32,000 nucleotides of DNA, taken from assembly GCA_001192655.1 (NCBI GenBank), contig BBVC01000016.1:1-32000 (forward strand), given 5' to 3'. Below, one piece after another: positions 1,573-12,932 of this stretch; the first letter of the stretch is position 1; each line of letters starts with the position of its first letter. The notes below the pieces were generated by a model. It was not told where the DNA came from, did no database searches, and saw only the letters and a program-made list of their open reading frames with translations. The DNA is from Caedimonas varicaedens (GTDB taxonomy: Bacteria > Pseudomonadota > Alphaproteobacteria > Caedimonadales > Caedimonadaceae). A program made the position numbers and the translations under genes.

Positions 1573-1647
1573 ACCCTTATTTTTTATCTCAGGTGTATCA
1601 ATTTTCATCCGAGGATTTTTAAAAATCTGTATCAAATTTCAGCCGAT

Positions 1648-2171
1648 CTTGGAATAAGGCGCCGATGACATTCGTTCGTCCCTTTGCTCCCCAATCATGA
1701 ATCCCCTCACATCTCTTTCCTTTTGGAGAATAACCATGAGTGCGTGGCATATGGTGTGCAAATCCAGATTCATCAAGAGAAATGATAGGATGCCCTGCTT
1801 CTTCATAAGCTTTCAGCTCTTGACAAAAAGTAGCACGCTTTTCTGGATCGGCCTTGGGATGTTTGAGCGTTTTTTTTATAGGTCACATTCAAGCGTTTTA
1901 AAGCGTGCCATATCCCCATAGAGCTCACACCAAGACGTTCTGCTCTCTCGTACTGATAAGCATCAGGATAAAGCTGTATATCTTCTTTAAGGGCATCCAT
2001 ATTAAGCTTAGTGGCTGGTTTATGACGATGTGTCTGAGGCTCAGGCTTCTTGACCCATCTGACAAGACTGGTCACTCCAACACCAAAGAGATCCGCCGTT
2101 TCAGCAAAACTCAAATTTTTCTTCTTTTTTACAGATAAAACACGAAGTCTAAAATCTAATGAATAGGTCAT
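1648..2171 (-). pseudogene. IS630-family transposase, truncated by the IS21 insertion (orfA 1803-2171 plus part of the catalytic frame)
   Basis: The 122-aa orfA is identical to that of the intact copy. The downstream frame is cut before the second Asp and the Glu of the DDE triad. Confidence 0.8.
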
Positions 2172-2227
2172 GGAATAATCCTCTTAAAAATTATCCATAA
2201 TATAACCATTTTAAAGGTTTTTAGCTA
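1648..2227 (-). mobile_element. IS630-family element, copy C. Only the transposase-5' 580 bp are present because IS21 copy A is inserted in it.
   Basis: 1648-2227 aligns with 20810-21389 of the intact 904-bp copy (constant offset 19162). It ends in the terminal TAGCTA followed by TA at 2228-2229. The junction with IS21 lies at 1647/1648. Confidence 0.85.
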
Positions 2228-2754
2228 TAGATCCAAGGTTTTGGAAAATGAGAAAACTTTTCTATGATTTTCTTGTGAGCTTTCGGGCAAAGTGGGGGAA
2301 TCTGATCTTCTTTTTTTATAGAGTAACCCGCTAATTCCATCACCATTTCCAGCTGGGTGATGGGATGAGCGGTTCGAGAAGGCTCAGGAAGATTTTTTTG
2401 AGAAGTCAAAAAGTATTTTTGACGACCATACCCAAATCCTACACGTTCAGGAACCCGTGCAAAAAAAGGCAAACTAGCATAGCTTACGCTCCAATGTAAA
2501 ATCCACGATTTTTGAAAACGACGCCGAATTAATTCAGGAATGATCATGCTTAACAACCGGCGATCAGCGTAGAGGACGTCACGAAACGCAGGGTCAGCAA
2601 GCAAGAACTCTCGTGCCAAAGAACGAGGTTTAGTCAACAAGGTAATAGGACCTTCCTCTCGTGCAATGGCTTTGAGATAAGGCAAATACCAAATCATATC
2701 TCCAATACCCGGAAAAGGCTGTATGATAAGAGTTCCCCCCTTACGCATCCTCAT
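2221..2754 (-). pseudogene. Glycosyltransferase family 9 (heptosyltransferase-like), N-terminal ~175 aa only, truncated by the IS630 insertion
   Basis: The N-terminus LIIQPFPGIGDMIWYLPYLKAIA is typical of RfaF/WaaC-type GT9 enzymes, which are normally over 300 aa. The reading frame runs straight into the IS630 terminus at 2227/2228, and the stop codon is supplied by the IS end. Confidence 0.65.
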
Positions 2755-2758
2755 CCTC

Positions 2759-4150
2759 CTAGTCCGGAACAGGAATTGAAAATTTTTCCAGGTGATATCT
2801 CAATTCTTCCTTGAGAATTTCCAAACTTTCAACGCTGTTAGCTTCCACACGCGCAACAAGTTCTTCTGTCGTATTGGAAGCACGCAAAAGCCACCAGCCA
2901 TGAAGGCTAACAACTCTGACGCCATCAATATCAATAAAGGGCGTTTGTGCCTTTTTCAAAGCTGCTTGTACCTGAGAAATAACAGAAAATTTGTCATAGT
3001 CTGAACATTCAAGACGAATTTCAGGTGTATTCAAGGGATGAGGCAATCGCTGATACCACTCACTCAGCTTTTCTTCTCCTGTAGAGATAATGCCCAACGT
3101 CCGAAGAGCTGCATATAAGGCATCATCAAACCCAAAATGACGATCAGCAAAAAAGATATGCCCACTCATTTCTCCCGCCAGAGGCGCTTTAGTTTCTGCC
3201 ATCTTTGTCTTAATCAATGAGTGTCCTGTTCGCCACATGAGAGGAACTCCACCCATTTCTGCAATTTTATCAAACAGTGTTTGACTTGCTTTAACGTCAG
3301 CAATAATCGTCGATCCAGGATATTCCTTTAATACTTCGTGAGATAAGAGGATAAGCAACTGATCTCCCCAAATGATATGACCTTGATTGTCAATAACACC
3401 AAGACGATCTCCATCTCCATCAAAAGCAAAGCCTAAATCTGCCTTATGCTCTTTAACCGCTTCAATTAATTGAAGCAGATTTTCAGCGACAACAGGGTCT
3501 GGGTGATGTGCTGGAAAAGTTCCATCAATATCTGCGTTCAGAAGTATATGTTCTCCGGGAAGCTTCTGAATAAGCTTTTTTATAATCTCTCCCGTGGCCC
3601 CGTTGCCTGCGTCCCATACCACTTTAAGAGCTTTGGCCGTGCTATAATGAGTTTCAAAATCACTGATCAAATAATCAATGTAAGCTTCTTCTATCAAATA
3701 ATTTTTAAGAGTACCAATACCAGGCTCGAAGTCTTCTTTTTCTATCAATTTTCCCAAGATTTTAATTTGTTCTCCAAAATAGGACTTTTTGAAAAGAACC
3801 ATCTTAAAACCGTTATAGGAAGCAGGATTATGAGAGCCGGTGACCATGATCGCAGCATCAGTCTGCAAGTGAAAACTTGCAAAATAGGTCATAGGAGAAG
3901 GGCCAAGCCCCACACGTATAATATGAAGTCCAGTAGATTGCAGCCCTTGCACCAATGCTTTTTCAAGTTCAACAGATGTCAGTCTGCCATCGTATCCCAC
4001 AACAATAGAGTTTCCACCTGCTCGTTTGACTATCGTACCATATCCTCTTCCAATTAAGTAGGCATCATGTACCCCAAATTCTTTATCAACGACACCCCGG
4101 ATATCATACTCGCGAAGAATTTTCGGGTTAAGGCTATAATGATGCATCAT
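2759..4150 (-). CDS. Phosphomannomutase/phosphoglucomutase (alpha-D-phosphohexomutase family)
   Basis: 463 aa. Active-site loop TGSHNPASYNGFK, metal loop FDGDGDR and sugar loop GEMSGH. The start overlaps the ugd stop (ATGA). Confidence 0.9.
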   Translation of the reverse strand: MMHHYSLNPKILREYDIRGVVDKEFGVHDAYLIGRGYGTIVKRAGGNSIVVGYDGRLTSVELEKALVQGLQSTGLHIIRVGLGPSPMTYFASFHLQTDAAIMVTGSHNPASYNGFKMVLFKKSYFGEQIKILGKLIEKEDFEPGIGTLKNYLIEEAYIDYLISDFETHYSTAKALKVVWDAGNGATGEIIKKLIQKLPGEHILLNADIDGTFPAHHPDPVVAENLLQLIEAVKEHKADLGFAFDGDGDRLGVIDNQGHIIWGDQLLILLSHEVLKEYPGSTIIADVKASQTLFDKIAEMGGVPLMWRTGHSLIKTKMAETKAPLAGEMSGHIFFADRHFGFDDALYAALRTLGIISTGEEKLSEWYQRLPHPLNTPEIRLECSDYDKFSVISQVQAALKKAQTPFIDIDGVRVVSLHGWWLLRASNTTEELVARVEANSVESLEILKEELRYHLEKFSIPVPD

Positions 4151-5505: not shown

Positions 5506-6414
5506 TTAATTCCCTTCTGCCATGGGGAATGTATCTCTAAAATCCTTCAAAAGAGATTCAAGTCCAGAAATTACATCCGTTGCCAGATCTTCCCGACCAA
5601 GTGCCACAGCTAAACTTGCCAGCAACAAGCCTTCTCTGGAACCACAGTCATAACGTTTTCCCTCAAAGCGAAAACCATAAAAAGGTTCCTGCGAAATAAG
5701 ATGGCTTAAAGCATCGGTTAATTGTATTTCTCCTCCCGCCCCACTTTTTTGAAGATCCAAATAATCGAAGACCTTCGGGTCTAAAATATAACGCCCAATA
5801 ATGGCAAGGTTGGAAGGCGCATTATCTGGATGAGGTTTCTCTACAACACCACGGACTTGAACCAACGCCCCTTGCTCTTGGGCAATATCCACAATACCAT
5901 AACGACTCACATGAGATCGATCAACATTCATGACAGCAACCATGATGCCGCCGTACTGCTCATAGCTCTGAATCATCTGTTGCAGGCATGGTTTCTCACT
6001 ATGAATAAAATCATCTGCCAACAAAACCGCAAAAGGCTCATTTCCGATCAAATGACGCGCACACCATACAGCATGTCCTAATCCTAAAGGCTCCTGTTGG
6101 CGAGTATAGGCAATATTGCCCGCAGAAAGCTTTGGAACGCCCAAAGTCATATAATCAACCTTGACGCCGCGTTTTCTCAGTGTCTCTTCTAATTCGAAAG
6201 AATAGTCAAAATGATCTTCAATGGCTGATTTTCCACGCCCAGTCACAAAGATCAGCTCTTCAATGCCCGCAGCCAAAGCTTCCTCAACGGCGTATTGAAT
6301 CAGGGGCTTATCCACAACAGGTAGCATCTCTTTTGGCATTGCCTTCGTTGCAGGCAGAAAACGCGTCCCCAACCCGCCCACAGGAAATACAGCCTTACGG
6401 ATTTTCTTTATCAT
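5506..6414 (-). CDS. galU: UTP--glucose-1-phosphate uridylyltransferase
   Basis: 302 aa. The N-terminus KAVFPVGGLGTRFLPATKAMPKEMLPVVDKPLIQY is the GalU signature. Confidence 0.92.
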   Translation of the reverse strand: MIKKIRKAVFPVGGLGTRFLPATKAMPKEMLPVVDKPLIQYAVEEALAAGIEELIFVTGRGKSAIEDHFDYSFELEETLRKRGVKVDYMTLGVPKLSAGNIAYTRQQEPLGLGHAVWCARHLIGNEPFAVLLADDFIHSEKPCLQQMIQSYEQYGGIMVAVMNVDRSHVSRYGIVDIAQEQGALVQVRGVVEKPHPDNAPSNLAIIGRYILDPKVFDYLDLQKSGAGGEIQLTDALSHLISQEPFYGFRFEGKRYDCGSREGLLLASLAVALGREDLATDVISGLESLLKDFRDTFPMAEGN

Positions 6415-6606
6415 ATTTTTCCATCCCCTTATCCCAAAATCTTGTAGCGAATATAGGTAAAAAATACAAGATTTATCGCTCTCATGCTATTCACACTCAA
6501 AAGAAATTAAAATATTCTGATCATAAAAGTTGTTTCTGACTGATGAGTAAAGCAAATCTCTGCTTTTTGGTAAGGAAAAAAAGATATTATAAAGAAGAAC
6601 GTTATG

Positions 6607-6702
6607 TTTTGCTTTATATATCAATCAAAAGTCCTTTTCAAACTTGAAAAAACACGATAGGATTAAAAAGTTGGTCATTTTTGATTGATATATAAAGCAA
6701 AA
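6607..6702. promoter_or_regulatory. Perfect 24-bp inverted repeat (arms 6607-6630 and 6679-6702, 48-bp spacer) ending 2 nt before the hipB start codon. Candidate operator pair or 5'-leader stem.
   Basis: Arm 1 is TTTTGCTTTATATATCAATCAAAA. Arm 2 is its exact reverse complement, TTTTGATTGATATATAAAGCAAAA. It lies in the divergent galU/hipB intergenic region. Confidence 0.5.
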
Positions 6703-6704
6703 AG

Positions 6705-6956
6705 ATGATACGAAAACCTGTTTTTCTTCATACCCTAGAAATATTGGGAAAAATTATTGCTACAGAAAGAGCTCGTATTCCCCTTACACAACAAGAGCTT
6801 GCCGATCTAGCCGAAGTCAGCCGCACCTCTGTACAACGCCTGGAGGAAGGAAAGGAAGCAACCTTCTCTACCATTGTCAAGATACTGCGCGTATTAAACC
6901 TGATGTTGATCATTGATACATATCAAAAAGAAGAACAAATAGAAAATGACAGATGA
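6705..6956 (+). CDS. hipB: XRE-family helix-turn-helix protein, HipB-like component of a HipBST-type module
   Basis: 83 aa. HTH segment LTQQELADLAEVSRTSVQRLEEGK. Overlaps the next ORF by 11 nt. Confidence 0.75.
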   Translation: MIRKPVFLHTLEILGKIIATERARIPLTQQELADLAEVSRTSVQRLEEGKEATFSTIVKILRVLNLMLIIDTYQKEEQIENDR

Positions 6957-7293
6957 TTCTTTTACTCCAAGAAGCGCACATGTCTGTGTAAATCATCAAA
7001 AAGCAGGAATCCTGACAGAACTGAAACGCGGATATCACTATCAATTTCTTTATCTTCCCGATTATGAAGGCTCCTCTATTTCATTAACCATGCCTGTTCG
7101 CTCAGAACCCTATATCTATGATCGTTTTCCTCCTTTTTTTGATGGGCTTTTACCTGAGGGGAATCACCTTGAAGCCCTATTGAGGCAAGCCAAGCTTGAT
7201 CGGGATGATTACTTTGGCCAGCTTATCGCAGTAGGAAAAGATATGGTAGGGGCTGTCAGTGTGGAAGGAATATCCTCATGGACAGATGTTTAA
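6946..7293 (+). CDS. hipS: HipA N-terminal subdomain protein (HipS-like)
   Basis: 115 aa. FFDGLLPEG matches E. coli HipA FFDNLLPDS, and KDMVGAVSV matches HipA RDSVGAVTL. The ORF ends where HipA N-subdomain 1 ends and overlaps the kinase ORF by 16 nt. Confidence 0.75.
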   Translation: MTDDSFTPRSAHVCVNHQKAGILTELKRGYHYQFLYLPDYEGSSISLTMPVRSEPYIYDRFPPFFDGLLPEGNHLEALLRQAKLDRDDYFGQLIAVGKDMVGAVSVEGISSWTDV

Positions 7294-8210
7294 TAACTCT
7301 TCAGGAAATTCCTGAAGGGCATCTGTATAGCCGTCATGGACTTGCACGGCTTTCGCCCCGTTTGAAAAATCTCAGGCTTTTTCCGTATTCGGCAGAACGT
7401 CAGCAACAGGAAGCGCTTGCACGCACAACCAAAATGTCCATTCAGGGAGTCCAGCCAAAGCTCAGCGCCCGACTTGATATTTCCCGCGAAACTTTTGAAA
7501 TTGTTGAGCAGCGAGGAACTTATATTCTCAAACCCTCTCATCTTTTCTACCCTGAACTGCCTGCCAATGAAGCGCTGACAATGACTCTAGCCGCACAAGT
7601 AGGGATTGAAATTCCCTTACACGGTCTCATTAAATGTAGTGATGAGAGTCTAACCTATTTTATCAAGCGATATGATCGCAAAGGTCATGACGCACGCATC
7701 TCTGTAGAAGATTTTGCTCAATTAACTGAGGAAACACGAGAAACAAAATATAATTCAAGTATGGAGAAAGTCGCAAAAGTGATCGATAGATTTTGCAGCT
7801 ATCCGCAAGTCGAAAAGAAAAAATTATTTGATCGGATTCTGTTTTCCTATTTGATTGGCAATGAAGACATGCATCTGAAAAATTTTTCCCTTATTGTTCG
7901 AAAGGGAAAAGTTGAGCTTTCACCTGCCTATGACCTTTTGAATACATCAATTGCACTGCCTTCGTCCCATGAAGAAATGGCACTGCCAATGGGTGGAAAA
8001 AAGAATAAACTTGATCTTCAGGATTTCAGAAATTATGGACAACTTACGCTTATGCTGCCAGATAAAATTGTTGATGGTTGCCTTTTAAAATTGAAAGAAA
8101 ATCTACCCATTTTGCTCAATACTATTCAAATAAGCTTTTTATCTGAAAACATGAAGAAAAAGTACCTCACTCTACTAAACCAGCGCGCTGAAAAATTACA
8201 AATTTCCTAA
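7278..8210 (+). CDS. hipT: HipA-family Ser/Thr kinase core (HipT-like toxin)
   Basis: 310 aa. Gly-rich loop MSIQGVQPK (HipA ISVAGAQEK), catalytic loop LIGNEDMHLKNFS (HipA LIGATDGHAKNFS) and Mg-binding SPAYDLLN (HipA TPFYDIIS). Confidence 0.8.
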   Translation: MDRCLITLQEIPEGHLYSRHGLARLSPRLKNLRLFPYSAERQQQEALARTTKMSIQGVQPKLSARLDISRETFEIVEQRGTYILKPSHLFYPELPANEALTMTLAAQVGIEIPLHGLIKCSDESLTYFIKRYDRKGHDARISVEDFAQLTEETRETKYNSSMEKVAKVIDRFCSYPQVEKKKLFDRILFSYLIGNEDMHLKNFSLIVRKGKVELSPAYDLLNTSIALPSSHEEMALPMGGKKNKLDLQDFRNYGQLTLMLPDKIVDGCLLKLKENLPILLNTIQISFLSENMKKKYLTLLNQRAEKLQIS

Positions 8211-8265: not shown

Positions 8266-8574
8266 ATGGGTTATCTCTTAAAAATTACAGTATTTTTCTG
8301 TCTTGTTGGACAAGGAGTATCAGCGTCTTCCCTGATCAAGGCATCGCACTTTTCTTTTAAACTGGATGCGCCTGTAGGATGGTCTCTGGACGCGCACTAT
8401 AATATCCCCGCTAATAAGCTTGCTATAGCTATGCCTTATGGACAACTCATCGACGACTGTACCAGTGTTGTGTATGTCAGTGAATCAAATCTTTTTTTTG
8501 CTCATCAACCTCTTGAACATTTTATTGCTTCTGATGTTAGCGCCGGAGGTAAAATGATACAGATCATCGGTTGA
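8266..8574 (+). pseudogene. N-terminal fragment of a secreted hypothetical protein gene interrupted by IS21 copy B
   Basis: Signal-peptide-like N-terminus MGYLLKITVFFCLVGQGVSASS. The ORF runs into the IS21 left end, and its last codons and stop (8566-8574) are IS sequence. Confidence 0.6.
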
Positions 8575-8623
8575 ATTTTGATACACCCACGCATTAACTC
8601 CTTTTCAAAGGAGTTTAGGAATA

Positions 8624-10458
<1,835 letters not shown>

Positions 10459-10534
10459 ACCCTTATTTTTTTATCTCAGGTGTATCAATTTTCATCCGAG
10501 GATTTTTAAAAATCTGTATCAAATTTCAGCCGAT

Positions 10535-10897
10535 GTTGACACTGATCTTGGTATCCAGAAGAAACGAGTCCCTGACGTTATTTTAACGTCCCGTTATCAG
10601 CTTCGAACATCGCAGGGACTCCAGGTTCCGGTCTGTACTTTCAAGGGAGATAAGGGAAAATCTCATGAAAGTGTGGCTTATATTCGCGAAAAAGACAAAG
10701 TCATCCTGATTGTTCTTATGTCTGTTAGCGAACATGAAATGGTAAAAGCCTTACCTGCATTTCGTAAAATCGTCATGTCGTACCGCAAGGCAAGTCTGCC
10801 TTCCAGAATACAAAAAGCAGCTCTGCCGAAAATTAGTCAGAAATCTACATTTCAAATTAGAAAAAAAGTTAATCCTATTTCGCGTCCAGTCCAGTAA
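10535..10897 (+). pseudogene. C-terminal fragment of the gene interrupted by IS21 copy B
   Basis: The frame is open from the IS21 right boundary (10535) to the stop at 10897. The track shows only its GTG-started tail (10673-10897). The phase is compatible with joining to the 8266 fragment. Confidence 0.5.
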
Positions 10898-10925: not shown

Positions 10926-12932
10926 TTAATACGGCTCATCTACACCTAATTCTCTCGCTTCCAAGTCGCGCAGCTCATCCCGCAGCCGTGCTGCTTCTTC
11001 AAATTCAAGGTTGCTAGCTGCTTTCAGCATTCGCTTTTCCAGAGCAACTTTATAGGCCACAAGCTTTTTCCCCGTTAAATGAGCCGTTTTATCCTCTTCA
11101 ATTTTAACTGTTACATGATCTTTTTCATAAACGCTGATCAGGATATCCGCAATGGATTTTTTAACAGATTCAGGTGTAATGCCATGAGCCGCATTATAGG
11201 CTTGTTGCTTTTCGCAACGACGATGGGTTTCTTCCAGAGCAGCTTTCATAGAGTCGGTTATTTTATCAGCGTACAGGATCGCGCGGCCGTCCACATTGCG
11301 CGCCGCCCTTCCGATGGTCTGAATGAGGGATGTACGTGACCGCAGATAGCCTTCCTTATCCGCATCCAGAATCGCCACAAGCGCACATTCAGGGATATCA
11401 AGCCCCTCACGCAGCAAGTTGATGCCGACCAGAATATCAAAAACGCCCAGTCTCAGATCGCGGATAATTTCAATGCGTTCAAGCGTATCAATGTCTGAAT
11501 GCACATAGCGGGTTTTCAGACCTGCCTCTGTCAGGTATTCTGTCAGGGCTTCCGCCATTTTTTTGGTGAGTGTGGTTACCAACACCCGATATCCCTGTCG
11601 CGCGGTTTCAGAACACTCGGTAATCAGATCATCAATTTGATATTGGGTAGGACGTACCAAACACACAGGGTCGATCAATCCTGTAGGTCGAATGATTTGT
11701 TCAACAAAGATCCCTGTTGTTTGTTCAAGCTCCCATGGACTTGGGGTTGCTGAAACAAAAACTGTTTGGGGACGCATGATCTCCCATTCCTCAAATTTCA
11801 GGGGACGATTATCACGGCATGAGGGCAAGCGAAAGCCATATTCTGCCAGTGTATTCTTTCGCACAGCATCTCCCTTGTACATTCCCCTGATCTGGGGAAC
11901 TGAGACATGACTTTCATCTACAATCAGCAACGCGTTTTGGGGAAGATATTCAAAAAGAGTTGGGGGCGGTTCGCCAGGCGCGCGGGCTGTCAGGAAACGC
12001 GAATAATTTTCAATACCAGCGCACATTCCCGTGGCTTCAAGCATCTCAAGATCAAATGTCGTCCGCTGTCTTAGTCGTTGCGCTTCCAAAAGCCGGTTTT
12101 GTCCTTCCAGCTCTTCCAGACGTTCTTTCAGTTCATGGCGAATCAGCTTGATGGCTTGTTGCATGGTAGGCTTTGGCGTCACATAATGACTATTGGGGAA
12201 GATTGTAATATCGTCCAGCCCTCTGATTTTTTCTCCTGTCAGGGGATCAATTTCATGAATTTCTTCCAGTTCATCTCCAAAAAAAGAAAGTCGCCAGGCG
12301 CGGTCTTCCAGGTGAGACGGAAAAATTTCAAGAGTATCTCCACTGACGCGAAATGTCCCGCGATGGAAACTTATGTCATTGCGTTTATATTGAAGTTCCA
12401 CAAATTTCTTGAGAAGTTCCAGGAGAGGAATTTGACAACCCATTTTAAGGGAAATGGTCATCCTTGCATAATCTTCTACAGCACCAATACCATAAATACA
12501 GGAAACACTGGCAACGATGATAACGTCCTGCCGCTCAAGCAGCGACCGCGTTGCTGAATGTCGCATACGATCGATTTGCTCATTGATCGTCGCTTCTTTT
12601 TCAATGAAGGTATCCGTGCGCGGCACATAGGCTTCGGGTTGATAATAGTCATAATACGAAACAAAATATTCGACCGCATTAGAAGGAAAGAATTCTTTCA
12701 TCTCTCCATATAACTGAGCCGCAAGAGTTTTGTTAGGCGCCATAATCAGCGCAGGTCGCTTCAATTTTTGAATGACGTGAGCCATTGTGAAGGTTTTTCC
12801 TGACCCCGTCACGCCCAGCAAAACCTGATTTTTTTCCCCCTGCTGAAGCCCTTGCAATAATGCCTCAATGGCCTGGGGCTGATCCCCCGCCGGTTGAAAG
12901 TCAGACTGCAATTGAAACAAACCAGATTTCAA
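10926..12932 (-). CDS. uvrB: Excinuclease ABC subunit B
   Basis: 668 aa. Walker [10 protein letters not shown], helicase motifs (LLIVDESH) and a C-terminal UVR domain ([13 protein letters not shown]). Confidence 0.95.

What the first reader, a model, noticed from the sequence alone, without database searches (positions are those of the whole stretch)
6705..8210. Three-gene split-kinase HipBST-type toxin-antitoxin cassette
Three translationally overlapping ORFs of 83, 115 and 310 aa (overlaps of 11 and 16 nt) encode an XRE HTH protein, a protein matching only HipA N-subdomain 1 (FFDGLLPEG, KDMVGAVSV), and the HipA kinase core (MSIQGVQPK, GNEDMHLKNFS, SPAYDLLN). The break between ORF2 and ORF3 falls where subdomain 1 of full-length E. 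coli HipA ends. This is the architecture described for HipBST in E. coli O127:H6. In that system HipT phosphorylates TrpS, HipS is the antitoxin and HipB augments. Here the Gly-rich loop reads S54-I-Q56 where E. coli HipT has S57-I-S59, so only one of the two autophosphorylation serines exists. That suggests a different autoregulatory state. The cassette lies between a core sugar-nucleotide operon and an IS-disrupted gene, in an accessory context. It is the only multi-gene accessory module in the window. Its target and role (persistence, plasmid or phage exclusion, genome stabilisation in an IS-rich genome) are unknown.
Basis: partly seen in the sequence, partly recalled or inferred. Interest (0 to 1): 0.7.

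Follow-up and report, generated by a model that had tools for sequence, protein, structure and literature searches.

The report
Legionella-type HipBST split-kinase toxin-antitoxin cassette
This is an intact three-gene HipBST toxin-antitoxin cassette of the already characterised Legionella pneumophila type, sitting in the chromosome of an uncultured alphaproteobacterium; it is an ordinary new member of a very large known family, and its only fresh feature is a repressor and operator pair with a changed DNA recognition sequence.

Summary
Three overlapping ORFs (6705-6956, 6946-7293, 7278-8210; overlaps 11 and 16 nt) encode an HTH_3 protein, a Couple_hipA-only protein and a HipA_C kinase core.

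The closest characterised system is L. pneumophila HipBST, not E. coli O127 HipBST. HipT matches HipT(Lp) at E=1e-101 (54% identity) and HipT(Ec) at 1e-29. The S54-I-Q56 loop is the norm for this clade and is already published. In that clade serine phosphorylation does not switch the kinase off, and the target is neither TrpS nor GltX.

- The hipS/hipT split is ancestral: it is present in all 88 loci examined.
- All three genes are under purifying selection (dN/dS 0.09-0.34).
- All catalytic residues, and the HipT residues whose mutation weakened HipS binding, are conserved.
- The cassette sits at the same chromosomal site in 97% and 86% relatives.
- The IS21 downstream (8536-10541, TSD CTGAT) is a later insertion.

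One feature is new. Three palindromic operators lie upstream of hipB at about 72-nt spacing, as in Legionella, but their sequence differs: TGATTGATATATAAAGCA rather than TTACTGCTATAACAGTAA. The HipB recognition helix changes with it.

Verdict: new member of a known kind, low-moderate interest.

The parts
6533..6556 (.). Putative HipB operator O3 (degenerate): TTTCTGACTGATGAGTAAAGCAAA
   Evidence: 79% identical to O1 and 78% complementary to O2. It starts 74 nt before O2. At the same position the 86% relative L081 has a perfect TGATTGATATATAAAGCA. Binding by HipB is inferred.
6607..6630 (.). Putative HipB operator O2: TTTTGCTTTATATATCAATCAAAA (imperfect palindrome)
   Evidence: Perfect 24-nt inverted repeat of O1, 72 nt start to start. 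The 20-nt core pattern occurs with 0 mismatches only at O1 and O2 in the 32 kb, against 0.57 expected at up to 3 mismatches. Conserved in L081 and L084-L088.
6679..6702 (.). Putative HipB operator O1: TTTTGATTGATATATAAAGCAAAA (core TGATTGATATATAAAGCA). It ends 2 nt before the hipB ATG.
   Evidence: The arrangement matches the three operators shown by EMSA to bind HipB(Lp) (18-nt inverted repeats, 53-bp gaps). The sequence differs from the Legionella TTACTGCTATAACAGTAA.
6705..6956 (+). hipB: 83-aa Xre/HTH_3 repressor with recognition helix EVSRTSVQRLEEG
   Evidence: HTH_3 5.7e-9 and couple_hipB TIGR03070 6.4e-13. Best solved structure is HipB(Lp) 8ezt at 1.8e-6. dN/dS 0.18-0.34 against 97% relatives. 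The start region is conserved in relatives; L081 uses an ATG one codon downstream of 6705.
6946..7293 (+). hipS: 115-aa antitoxin equal to HipA N-subdomain 1
   Evidence: Couple_hipA 5.6e-24. HipS(Lp) 7vkb_B 7.9e-35, 60% identity. dN/dS 0.09-0.23. The C-terminal tail after about G108 is unconstrained: a 4-nt deletion there in L082/L083 is tolerated.
7278..8210 (+). hipT: 310-aa HipA-family Ser/Thr kinase toxin
   Evidence: HipA_C 1.2e-47. Full-length match to HipT(Lp) 8ezr/7vkb at 1.2e-101, 54% identity. dN/dS 0.12 against the 86% relative. An SD-like GGAAGGA lies 10 nt upstream of the ATG.
7431..7457 (+). HipT P-loop K52-M-S54-I-Q56-G-V-Q-P60
   Evidence: S54, Q56 and G57 align to the autophosphorylated S54 loop of HipT(Lp) (Zhen 2022).
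7860..7934 (+). HipT catalytic loop N195-E-D197-M-H-L-K201-N and Mg-binding D219 (SPAYD)
   Evidence: D197, K201 and D219 are identical to HipT(Lp). D197Q and D219Q abolish kinase activity and toxicity in L. pneumophila.

Best explanation
This is a chromosomal type II tripartite toxin-antitoxin operon of the HipBST family, in the L. pneumophila (HipBST-Lp) subclade.

- HipT (310 aa) is a HipA-fold Ser/Thr kinase. When free, it arrests growth by phosphorylating an essential cellular protein. That target is unknown for the whole subclade and is probably not TrpS or GltX.
- HipS (115 aa) corresponds to HipA N-subdomain 1. It is the actual antitoxin: it binds the HipT N-lobe and forces the P-loop (K52-P60) out of the active site, which blocks ATP binding.
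- HipB (83 aa) is an HTH dimer that does not neutralise the toxin. It represses the operon by binding three palindromes spaced about 72 nt apart (O3 6533-6556, O2 6607-6630, O1 6679-6702). O1 overlaps the hipB translation start. HipB probably acts as HipB-HipT and HipB-HipT-HipS complexes on the DNA.
- The 11- and 16-nt gene overlaps couple translation and so fix the stoichiometry.

Shown here: gene architecture, homology, conserved catalytic and interface residues, purifying selection, and operator anatomy with its conservation. Inferred by homology to the Legionella experiments: toxicity, neutralisation by HipS, and DNA binding by HipB.
For: Architecture and domain content.

Full-length similarity to solved proteins: HipT(Lp) 1.2e-101, HipS(Lp) 7.9e-35, HipB(Lp) 1.8e-6.

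Conserved residues (roles):
- Catalytic D197, K201 and D219; P-loop S54, Q56 and G57.
- The phospho-serine cradle R131, R134 and D145.
- The HipT residues whose mutation abolished or weakened HipS binding: D133, R134, E144, R154, K157, K201.
- HipS partner residues S46, L47, F64, G67, P70, E71 and G102.

The split is present in all 88 loci examined, and 79 of the 80 distant loci have hipS directly upstream of hipT.

dN/dS is 0.12 for hipT, 0.09-0.23 for hipS and 0.18-0.34 for hipB.

Three palindromes sit at 72-74-nt spacing, mirroring the Legionella operators validated by EMSA. They are conserved in position in the 86% relative.

The HipB recognition helix covaries with operator type.

Experimental basis in L. 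pneumophila: HipT is toxic through its kinase activity, HipS but not HipB neutralises it, and HipB binds O1-O3 (Lin 2023; Zhen 2022).
Against: There is no experimental evidence for this locus.

No sigma-70-like promoter was found between the operators and hipB, and no terminator after hipT, so the transcript boundaries are unknown.

O1 abuts the ATG with a 2-nt gap, against 24 nt in Legionella, so the geometry of repression differs. It may act through the RBS or a leaderless start.

Some HipS contact residues differ from Lp: I65/M66 become N73/H74, K73 becomes Q81, and Q90 becomes K98. These positions are variable across the clade and were dispensable in Lp.

Two 97% relatives (L082, L083) carry only one operator, so three sites are not strictly required.
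Confidence: 0.85

Rival explanations
1. ORF2 and ORF3 are one full-length hipA broken by a frameshift, either a pseudogene or a sequencing error. The locus would then be a canonical or decayed two-gene hipBA.
For: HipS plus HipT together equal the HipA fold. A 2025 survey reports fused HipST ORFs in about 20% of Legionellaceae genomes (PMC12482156).
Against: All 88 loci examined have the split at the same position, each with its own hipT start codon. These comprise 79 distant loci from many phyla, 8 close relatives and the window. Both halves are under purifying selection. Independent metagenome assemblies of the same species give the same junction. The split form is the one shown to work as a toxin-antitoxin system in Legionella.
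Confidence: 0.02
2. The cassette is a domesticated or decaying remnant. The genes are intact, but HipT is no longer toxic or the system no longer acts as a toxin-antitoxin pair. The split lpg2377-80 duplicate in L. pneumophila is an example: its expression was non-toxic.
For: Non-functional HipBST derivatives exist (Lin 2023 discussion). The host genome is IS-ridden, which is typical of relaxed selection. Operator number varies between strains.
Against: All motifs are intact and every tested key residue is conserved. dN/dS is well below 1 for all three genes, including across the 86% relative. No IS or indel disrupts the cassette in any of 9 related sequences.
Confidence: 0.08
3. HipT is chiefly a secreted effector kinase aimed at a eukaryotic host. 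NCBI names the family 'lpg2370 family Dot/Icm T4SS effector'. On this reading HipS and HipB act only as a chaperone and a regulator.
For: The NCBI annotation of the Legionella homolog. Zhen 2022 treated Lpg2370 as an effector. The host's nearest named relatives by UvrB include Alphaproteobacteria MAGs and the ciliate symbiont Ca. Bealeia (Holosporales), and more distant relatives carry Sel1-repeat and T6SS genes.
Against: Lin 2023 found no translocation above the negative control and showed bacterial toxicity. The clade is spread across free-living Bacteroidota, Verrucomicrobiota, Ignavibacteriota and others that lack such secretion systems. No secretion system lies next to the cassette in the window.
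Confidence: 0.04
4. The physiological role is abortive-infection or anti-phage defence, or stabilisation of the neighbouring region, rather than persistence. The molecular mechanism is the same; only the selective purpose differs.
For: HipT gives weak hits (3.4e-10, kinase core only) to the candidate defence family PDC-M03A in PADLOC. The cassette is conserved at one locus in a genome with active IS elements.
Against: No PADLOC model covers HipS or the full HipT. There is no homolog in 50,697 phage records and only one close homolog in 72,556 plasmids. The neighbours are housekeeping genes (galU, ugd, uvrB), not a defence island.
Confidence: 0.1

Closest known systems
HipBST of Legionella pneumophila (Lpg2368-Lpg2369-Lpg2370; PDB 7VKB, 8EZR, 8EZS, 8EZT; Zhen et al. 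2022 Nat Commun; Lin et al. 2023 mBio)
   Same: Same gene order and sizes. HipT is 54% identical over its full length and HipS 60% identical. The P-loop has a single serine (S-I/V-Q). D197, K201 and D219 are identical, as are the HipS-binding residues. HipS lacks the tryptophan used in E. coli. Three palindromic operators lie upstream of hipB with about 71-72-nt periodicity.
   Different: The host is an alphaproteobacterium, not a member of Legionellales. HipB is only about 35-40% identical to Legionella HipBs, with a different recognition helix (VSRTSVQR against VGKTVIYD). The operator is TGATTGATATATAAAGCA rather than TTACTGCTATAACAGTAA. O1 abuts the start codon (2 nt against 24 nt). The hipS/hipT overlap is 16 nt rather than 4 nt, and HipB and HipS carry 8-aa N-terminal extensions.
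HipBST of E. coli O127:H6 (PDB 7AB3-7AB5; Vang Nielsen 2019; Baerentsen 2023 eLife)
   Same: Tripartite split-HipA architecture. HipS acts as antitoxin by displacing the P-loop. HipB is the HTH regulator.
   Different: Only a remote match (HipT 1e-29, HipS 1e-9). E. coli has the S57-I-S59 double-serine loop, HipS W65 and a TrpS target. The window system has S-I-Q and N73/H74, and by analogy with Lp it probably has a different target.
HipBA of E. coli K-12 (full-length HipA with HipB antitoxin; target GltX)
   Same: Same kinase fold and catalytic motifs. HipS plus HipT together reproduce HipA.
   Different: Here the kinase is split into two genes, the antitoxin is HipS rather than HipB, and the match to HipA is weak (1e-5 to 1e-6).
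Uncharacterised HipBST locus in a Verrucomicrobiales MAG (locus L001, CAZITL010000006.1)
   Same: Nearest non-lineage relative found: HipB 59%, HipS 63% and HipT 56% identical. It has the same 16-nt hipS/hipT overlap, the same operator type (TGATTCATATATAAATCA) and the same VSRT..QR recognition helix.
   Different: Different phylum and different neighbours. Operator spacing is 72 and 83 nt. O1 ends 17 nt upstream of the hipB start (start offset -35).

Membership tests
HipBST tripartite TA (split HipA) | Three adjacent co-oriented genes: HTH hipB, then hipS (HipA N-subdomain 1 only), then hipT (HipA kinase core without N-subdomain 1) | tested here: met
   HTH_3; Couple_hipA only; HipA_C only. 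Overlaps of 11 and 16 nt.
HipBST tripartite TA (split HipA) | HipT retains the kinase catalytic machinery: P-loop serine, catalytic Asp, Mg-binding Asp | tested here: met
   S54, D197, K201 and D219 are conserved against HipT(Lp).
HipBST tripartite TA (split HipA) | The split is genuine, meaning separate and selected ORFs, and not a frameshift | tested here: met
   Split in 88 of 88 loci. dN/dS 0.09-0.25 for hipS and hipT.
HipBST tripartite TA (split HipA) | HipT is growth-inhibitory through its kinase activity, and HipS (not HipB) neutralises it | not testable with these tools
   Needs expression assays. Shown for the Lp and Ec homologs only.
HipBST-Lp subclade (Lin 2023) | HipT and HipS are closer to Lpg2370 and Lpg2369 than to the E. 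coli O127 proteins | tested here: met
   HipT 1.2e-101 against 1.1e-29. HipS 7.9e-35 against 1.4e-9.
HipBST-Lp subclade (Lin 2023) | Single-serine P-loop motif S-V/I-Q | tested here: met
   S54-I55-Q56. SIQ or SVQ in nearly all of the 120 best homologs. Described.
HipBST-Lp subclade (Lin 2023) | Three evenly spaced inverted-repeat operators upstream of hipB | tested here: met
   O1, O2 and O3 start 72 and 74 nt apart. Legionella: 18-nt sites with 53-bp gaps.
HipBST-Lp subclade (Lin 2023) | Operator sequence TTACTGCTATAACAGTAA (Legionella O1 consensus) | tested here: not met
   No match to TTACYG-N6-CRGTAA in the window at up to 1 mismatch. The window has TGATTGATATATAAAGCA instead. This is a property of most members, not a published defining criterion. 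About 72 of the 79 distant loci have it.
HipBST-Ec subclade (E. coli O127:H6) | SxS double-serine P-loop, HipS Trp65 and a TrpS target | tested here: not met
   The loop is S-I-Q. The HipS position after LLPEG is N73-H74. The TrpS target cannot be tested here.
Canonical HipBA | Single HipA ORF of about 440 aa, with HipB as the antitoxin | tested here: not met
   The kinase is split into ORFs of 115 and 310 aa in different frames.
lpg2370-family Dot/Icm T4SS effector (NCBI product name) | Translocation into a eukaryotic host cell | not testable with these tools
   The name appears on the Legionella adelaidensis homolog. Translocation is disputed by Lin 2023.

The most novel reading that the evidence does not exclude
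The window lineage may represent a distinct regulatory specificity class within HipBST-Lp. The class would also include a Verrucomicrobiales MAG (L001) and an Alphaproteobacteria MAG (L078). In it, the HipB recognition helix has switched from VGKTxxxD to VSRTxxQR, and all three operators have switched from TTACYG-N6-CRGTAA to TGATT-N8-AATCA while keeping the ~72-nt three-site layout. Such an orthogonal repressor and operator pair would insulate the system from cross-talk with other HipBST copies. It would also provide a natural specificity-swap pair for dissecting how HipB-HipT-HipS complexes read DNA. Separately, the kinase shares the still-unknown, non-TrpS and non-GltX target of the Lp clade.
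Probability: 0.45. Interest if true: 0.35.

Novelty: new member of a known kind. Interest (0 to 1): 0.25.

Why it matters
The result matters mainly for annotation. The cassette should be labelled HipBST of the Legionella type, with an unknown target, and not assimilated to the E. coli O127 TrpS-targeting system.

It extends the Lp-type clade to an alphaproteobacterial lineage. Lin et al. 2023 stressed its restriction to Legionellales within the Gammaproteobacteria and its abundance in the FCB group (Fibrobacterota, Chlorobiota, Bacteroidota).

It also shows that the three-operator, ~72-nt architecture is conserved across phyla even where the HipB recognition sequence has changed. That gives a ready-made natural pair for testing HipB specificity.

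It does not open a new question, and it does not make the clade's open question (the HipT substrate) any easier to test.

Tried and rejected
- **Exact-sequence look-ups.** HipT, GalU and IstB were not on record (one search used wrong minus-strand coordinates and was repeated). The window genome itself is therefore not in the collection. Relatives were reached through homologs instead.
- **Host identification from the IS21 DNA in plasmids.** No match.
- **Apparent 38-nt insertion in hipT of L085.** It looked like a natural toxin knockout but is a run of N, a scaffold gap. Rejected.
- **The 206-aa downstream gene as a fourth component.** Rejected, because it is found only in close relatives and in none of the 80 distant hipBST loci.
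- **Synteny in more distant host relatives (80-81% UvrB).** The gene order around uvrB is completely different, so this says nothing about gain or loss of the cassette.
- **Sizing the variant subgroup with a HipB homolog search.** It returned only the window's own lineage, because the word index is insensitive for an 83-aa protein.
- **Promoter and terminator scan.** Nothing above background near hipB.
- **TTG at 6744 as an alternative hipB start.** Rejected. It would remove residues that align with the N-terminus of Legionella HipB, and the upstream codons are conserved in relatives.
- **Structure prediction.** Not run.
Full report
**1. Observation**

The three ORFs exist exactly as described: 6705-6956 (83 aa), 6946-7293 (115 aa) and 7278-8210 (310 aa). 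All are on the + strand, with overlaps of 11 and 16 nt.

Pfam and NCBIfam results:
- ORF1: HTH_3 (5.7e-9) and the HipB-type TIGR03070 model (6.4e-13, below its curated cut-off).
- ORF2: Couple_hipA / TIGR03071 (5.6e-24 / 6.6e-26) and nothing else.
- ORF3: HipA_C (1.2e-47) and nothing else apart from a weak partial match to the YjjJ equivalog (3e-10, far below its cut-off).

HipS residues 14-106 align with E. coli HipA residues 7-103. The HipT P-loop serine is S54, against S150 in HipA. The break therefore sits where HipA N-subdomain 1 ends.

**2. What it is**

Against all PDB sequences, the best matches are the L. pneumophila proteins:
- HipT(Lp) 8EZR/7VKB: E=1.2e-101 over the full length.
- HipS(Lp) 7VKB_B: 7.9e-35.
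- HipB(Lp) 8EZT: 1.8e-6.

The E. coli O127 HipT and HipS score only 1e-29 and 1e-9, and full-length HipA scores 1e-5 to 1e-6. Global identity to the Lp proteins is 54% for HipT and 60% for HipS.

The cassette therefore belongs to the HipBST-Lp subclade that Lin et al. 2023 (PMC10653801) separated phylogenetically from HipBST-Ec.

**3. Is it intact and selected?**

All residues shown to matter in HipT(Lp) are identical here (roles):
- S54, Q56 and G57 in the P-loop.
- R131, R134 and D145, which cradle the phospho-serine.
- D133, R134, E144, R154, K157 and K201, whose mutation abolished or weakened HipS binding.
- Catalytic D197 and Mg-binding D219.

HipS keeps its partner residues, with E58 changed to D. 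It differs at I65/M66, which become N73/H74. That position is hypervariable across the clade and was dispensable in Lp.

A scan of one genome per species gave 430 confirmed relatives. Of the 80 best kept, 79 have a separate hipS directly upstream of hipT. Across those 79, eight close relatives and the window, the hipS/hipT split is present in 88 of 88 loci. A 4-nt overlap occurs in 69. A 16-nt overlap occurs in the window lineage and in one Verrucomicrobiales MAG, L001.

Close relatives were recovered from metagenomes:
- Five contigs about 97% identical in DNA (L084-L088).
- Two short contigs (L082, L083).
- One relative with HipT 86% identical (L081).

dN/dS against these is 0.12-0.25 for hipT, 0.09-0.23 for hipS and 0.18-0.34 for hipB. 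The frameshifted-hipA alternative is therefore rejected, and decay is unlikely.

**4. Regulatory region**

The 290-bp galU-hipB intergenic region holds three related imperfect palindromes:
- O1 6679-6702: TTTTGATTGATATATAAAGCAAAA.
- O2 6607-6630: a perfect inverted copy of O1, 72 nt upstream.
- O3 6533-6556: 79% identical to O1, a further 74 nt upstream.

The 20-nt core pattern occurs nowhere else in the 32 kb.

In L. pneumophila, HipB binds three 18-nt inverted repeats separated by 53-bp gaps, a period of 71 nt, as shown by EMSA. I read those sites directly from 13 Legionellales loci (11 named Legionella) as TTACTGCTATAACAGTAA. The same TTACYG-N6-CRGTAA motif, at 61-73-nt spacing, is found upstream of about 72 of the 79 distant loci, across many phyla. 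The window has no such site.

The TGATT-N8-AATCA type is found only in the window lineage, in L001 and in an Alphaproteobacteria MAG, L078. These same loci share a HipB recognition helix, VSRT(S/A)(V/I)QR(L/I)E. All canonical-operator loci have VGKTxxxD(I/L)E.

So the three-site architecture is conserved while the protein-DNA code has changed. This covariation is the one feature I did not find in the papers read here.

Other details of the regulatory region:
- O1 ends 2 nt before the hipB ATG, against 24 nt in Legionella.
- No convincing sigma-70 promoter was found, so the transcription start is open.
- Two 97% relatives carry a 145-bp deletion that fuses O3 and O1 into a single site, so operator number is polymorphic.

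**5. Context and host**

UvrB (10929-12932, minus strand) is 98-99% identical to proteins on the metagenome contigs above. It is about 75% identical to named Alphaproteobacteria MAGs and to Candidatus Bealeia paramacronuclearis of the Holosporales. The host is therefore an uncultured alphaproteobacterium. A finer placement was not possible.

In the 97% relatives the order is galU | hipB-hipS-hipT | 206-aa gene | uvrB. L081, the 86% relative, shares ugd, galU, hipBST and the downstream gene, but its contig continues with hemB (ALAD) rather than uvrB. In the window the 206-aa gene is split by an IS21 element at 8536-10541, with the target duplication CTGAT. The element is absent from all relatives.

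The cassette's G+C (0.39-0.43) matches its surroundings. It is therefore a stably inherited chromosomal locus in this lineage, not a recent island.

The nearest homologs outside the lineage are only 55-59% identical and are scattered over Verrucomicrobiota, Bacteroidota, Legionellales and others. That pattern implies old horizontal spread.

The 206-aa neighbour is not part of the system. Only one close homolog exists among 72,556 plasmids and none among 50,697 phages. PADLOC gives only weak kinase-core hits to a candidate family.

**6. Mechanism**

This is inferred by homology; see the best explanation. HipT is a kinase toxin. HipS is the antitoxin and acts by ejecting the P-loop. HipB is the autorepressor acting at O1-O3, probably together with HipT and HipS. 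Translation is coupled through the gene overlaps.

First, the S-I-Q loop is the clade norm: by the regex count plus reading the 26 unmatched sequences, SIQ occurs in about 105 of the 120 best homologs. It is already published. HipT(Lp) is autophosphorylated on S54, yet it still binds ATP, and the S54A and S54D mutants remain toxic.

Second, TrpS should not be assumed as the target. TrpS and GltX did not rescue HipT(Lp) toxicity, and neither an ASKA library screen nor phosphoproteomics identified the substrate.

**7. Verdict**

This is a correct and well-supported identification of a known kind of system. It is a new and fairly divergent member of the HipBST-Lp subclade, in an alphaproteobacterial host, with a variant HipB and operator specificity. 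Interest is low to moderate.

Noticed in passing
window 8536-10541 (also 1-1654): Two copies of an IS21-family element (istA 344 aa, istB 288 aa), 100% identical over the 300-nt reference stretches reported. The copy at 8536-10541 is flanked by a 5-bp duplication (CTGAT) and splits a 206-aa signal-peptide-like gene (8266-8535 plus 10542-10897). That gene is intact in all relatives. The other copy runs off the window start. The two copies are in direct orientation and bracket pgm-ugd-galU-hipBST, so the segment could in principle behave as a composite transposon. This was not tested.
   Followed up: partly
window 1641-2229, 20233-21145, 21385-22046: Three copies or fragments of an IS630-family element (HTH_Tnp_IS630 ORFs). 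Two form a 662-nt perfect inverted pair next to tRNA-Arg(ACG) at 22285-22361. The whole 20235-22043 block is absent from the 97% relatives, so it is a recent insertion.
   Followed up: partly
L082:1-90 and L083:1-155 (against window 6557-6677): Two metagenome relatives (HipT 97% identical) lack about 145 bp between O3 and O1, leaving a single hybrid operator. They also carry a 4-nt deletion at the 3' end of hipS that replaces the last residues with a longer out-of-frame tail (121 aa) without touching the conserved core. This is natural variation in operator copy number and in the HipS tail.
   Followed up: partly
L001 (CAZITL010000006.1, Verrucomicrobiales MAG) 2250-3930; L078 (CANMHY010000051.1, Alphaproteobacteria MAG): These are the only distant loci sharing the window's operator type (TGATT-N8-AATCA) and HipB recognition helix (VSRT..QR). 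L001 also shares the unusual 16-nt hipS/hipT overlap. Together they suggest a cross-phylum sub-lineage of HipBST-Lp with altered HipB specificity.
   Followed up: partly
window 6415-6704: The operator-bearing intergenic region is shared with the divergently transcribed galU-ugd-pgm operon (galU start at 6414, minus strand). O3 lies about 120 nt from galU. Whether HipB also affects this sugar-nucleotide operon is unknown.
   Followed up: no
window 15009-15617 and 14492-15052 (minus strand): Two adjacent, overlapping Chromate_transp ORFs (202 and 186 aa). They are conserved as a split pair in relatives, so this is probably the normal two-gene short-ChrA arrangement and not a frameshift.
   Followed up: no
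L091/L092 (relatives with 80% UvrB): More distant relatives of the host carry a fused T6SS sheath gene (VipA-VipB in one 631-aa ORF) and a 686-725-aa protein with a HigB-like toxin domain near uvrB. These are unrelated to the finding.
   Followed up: no
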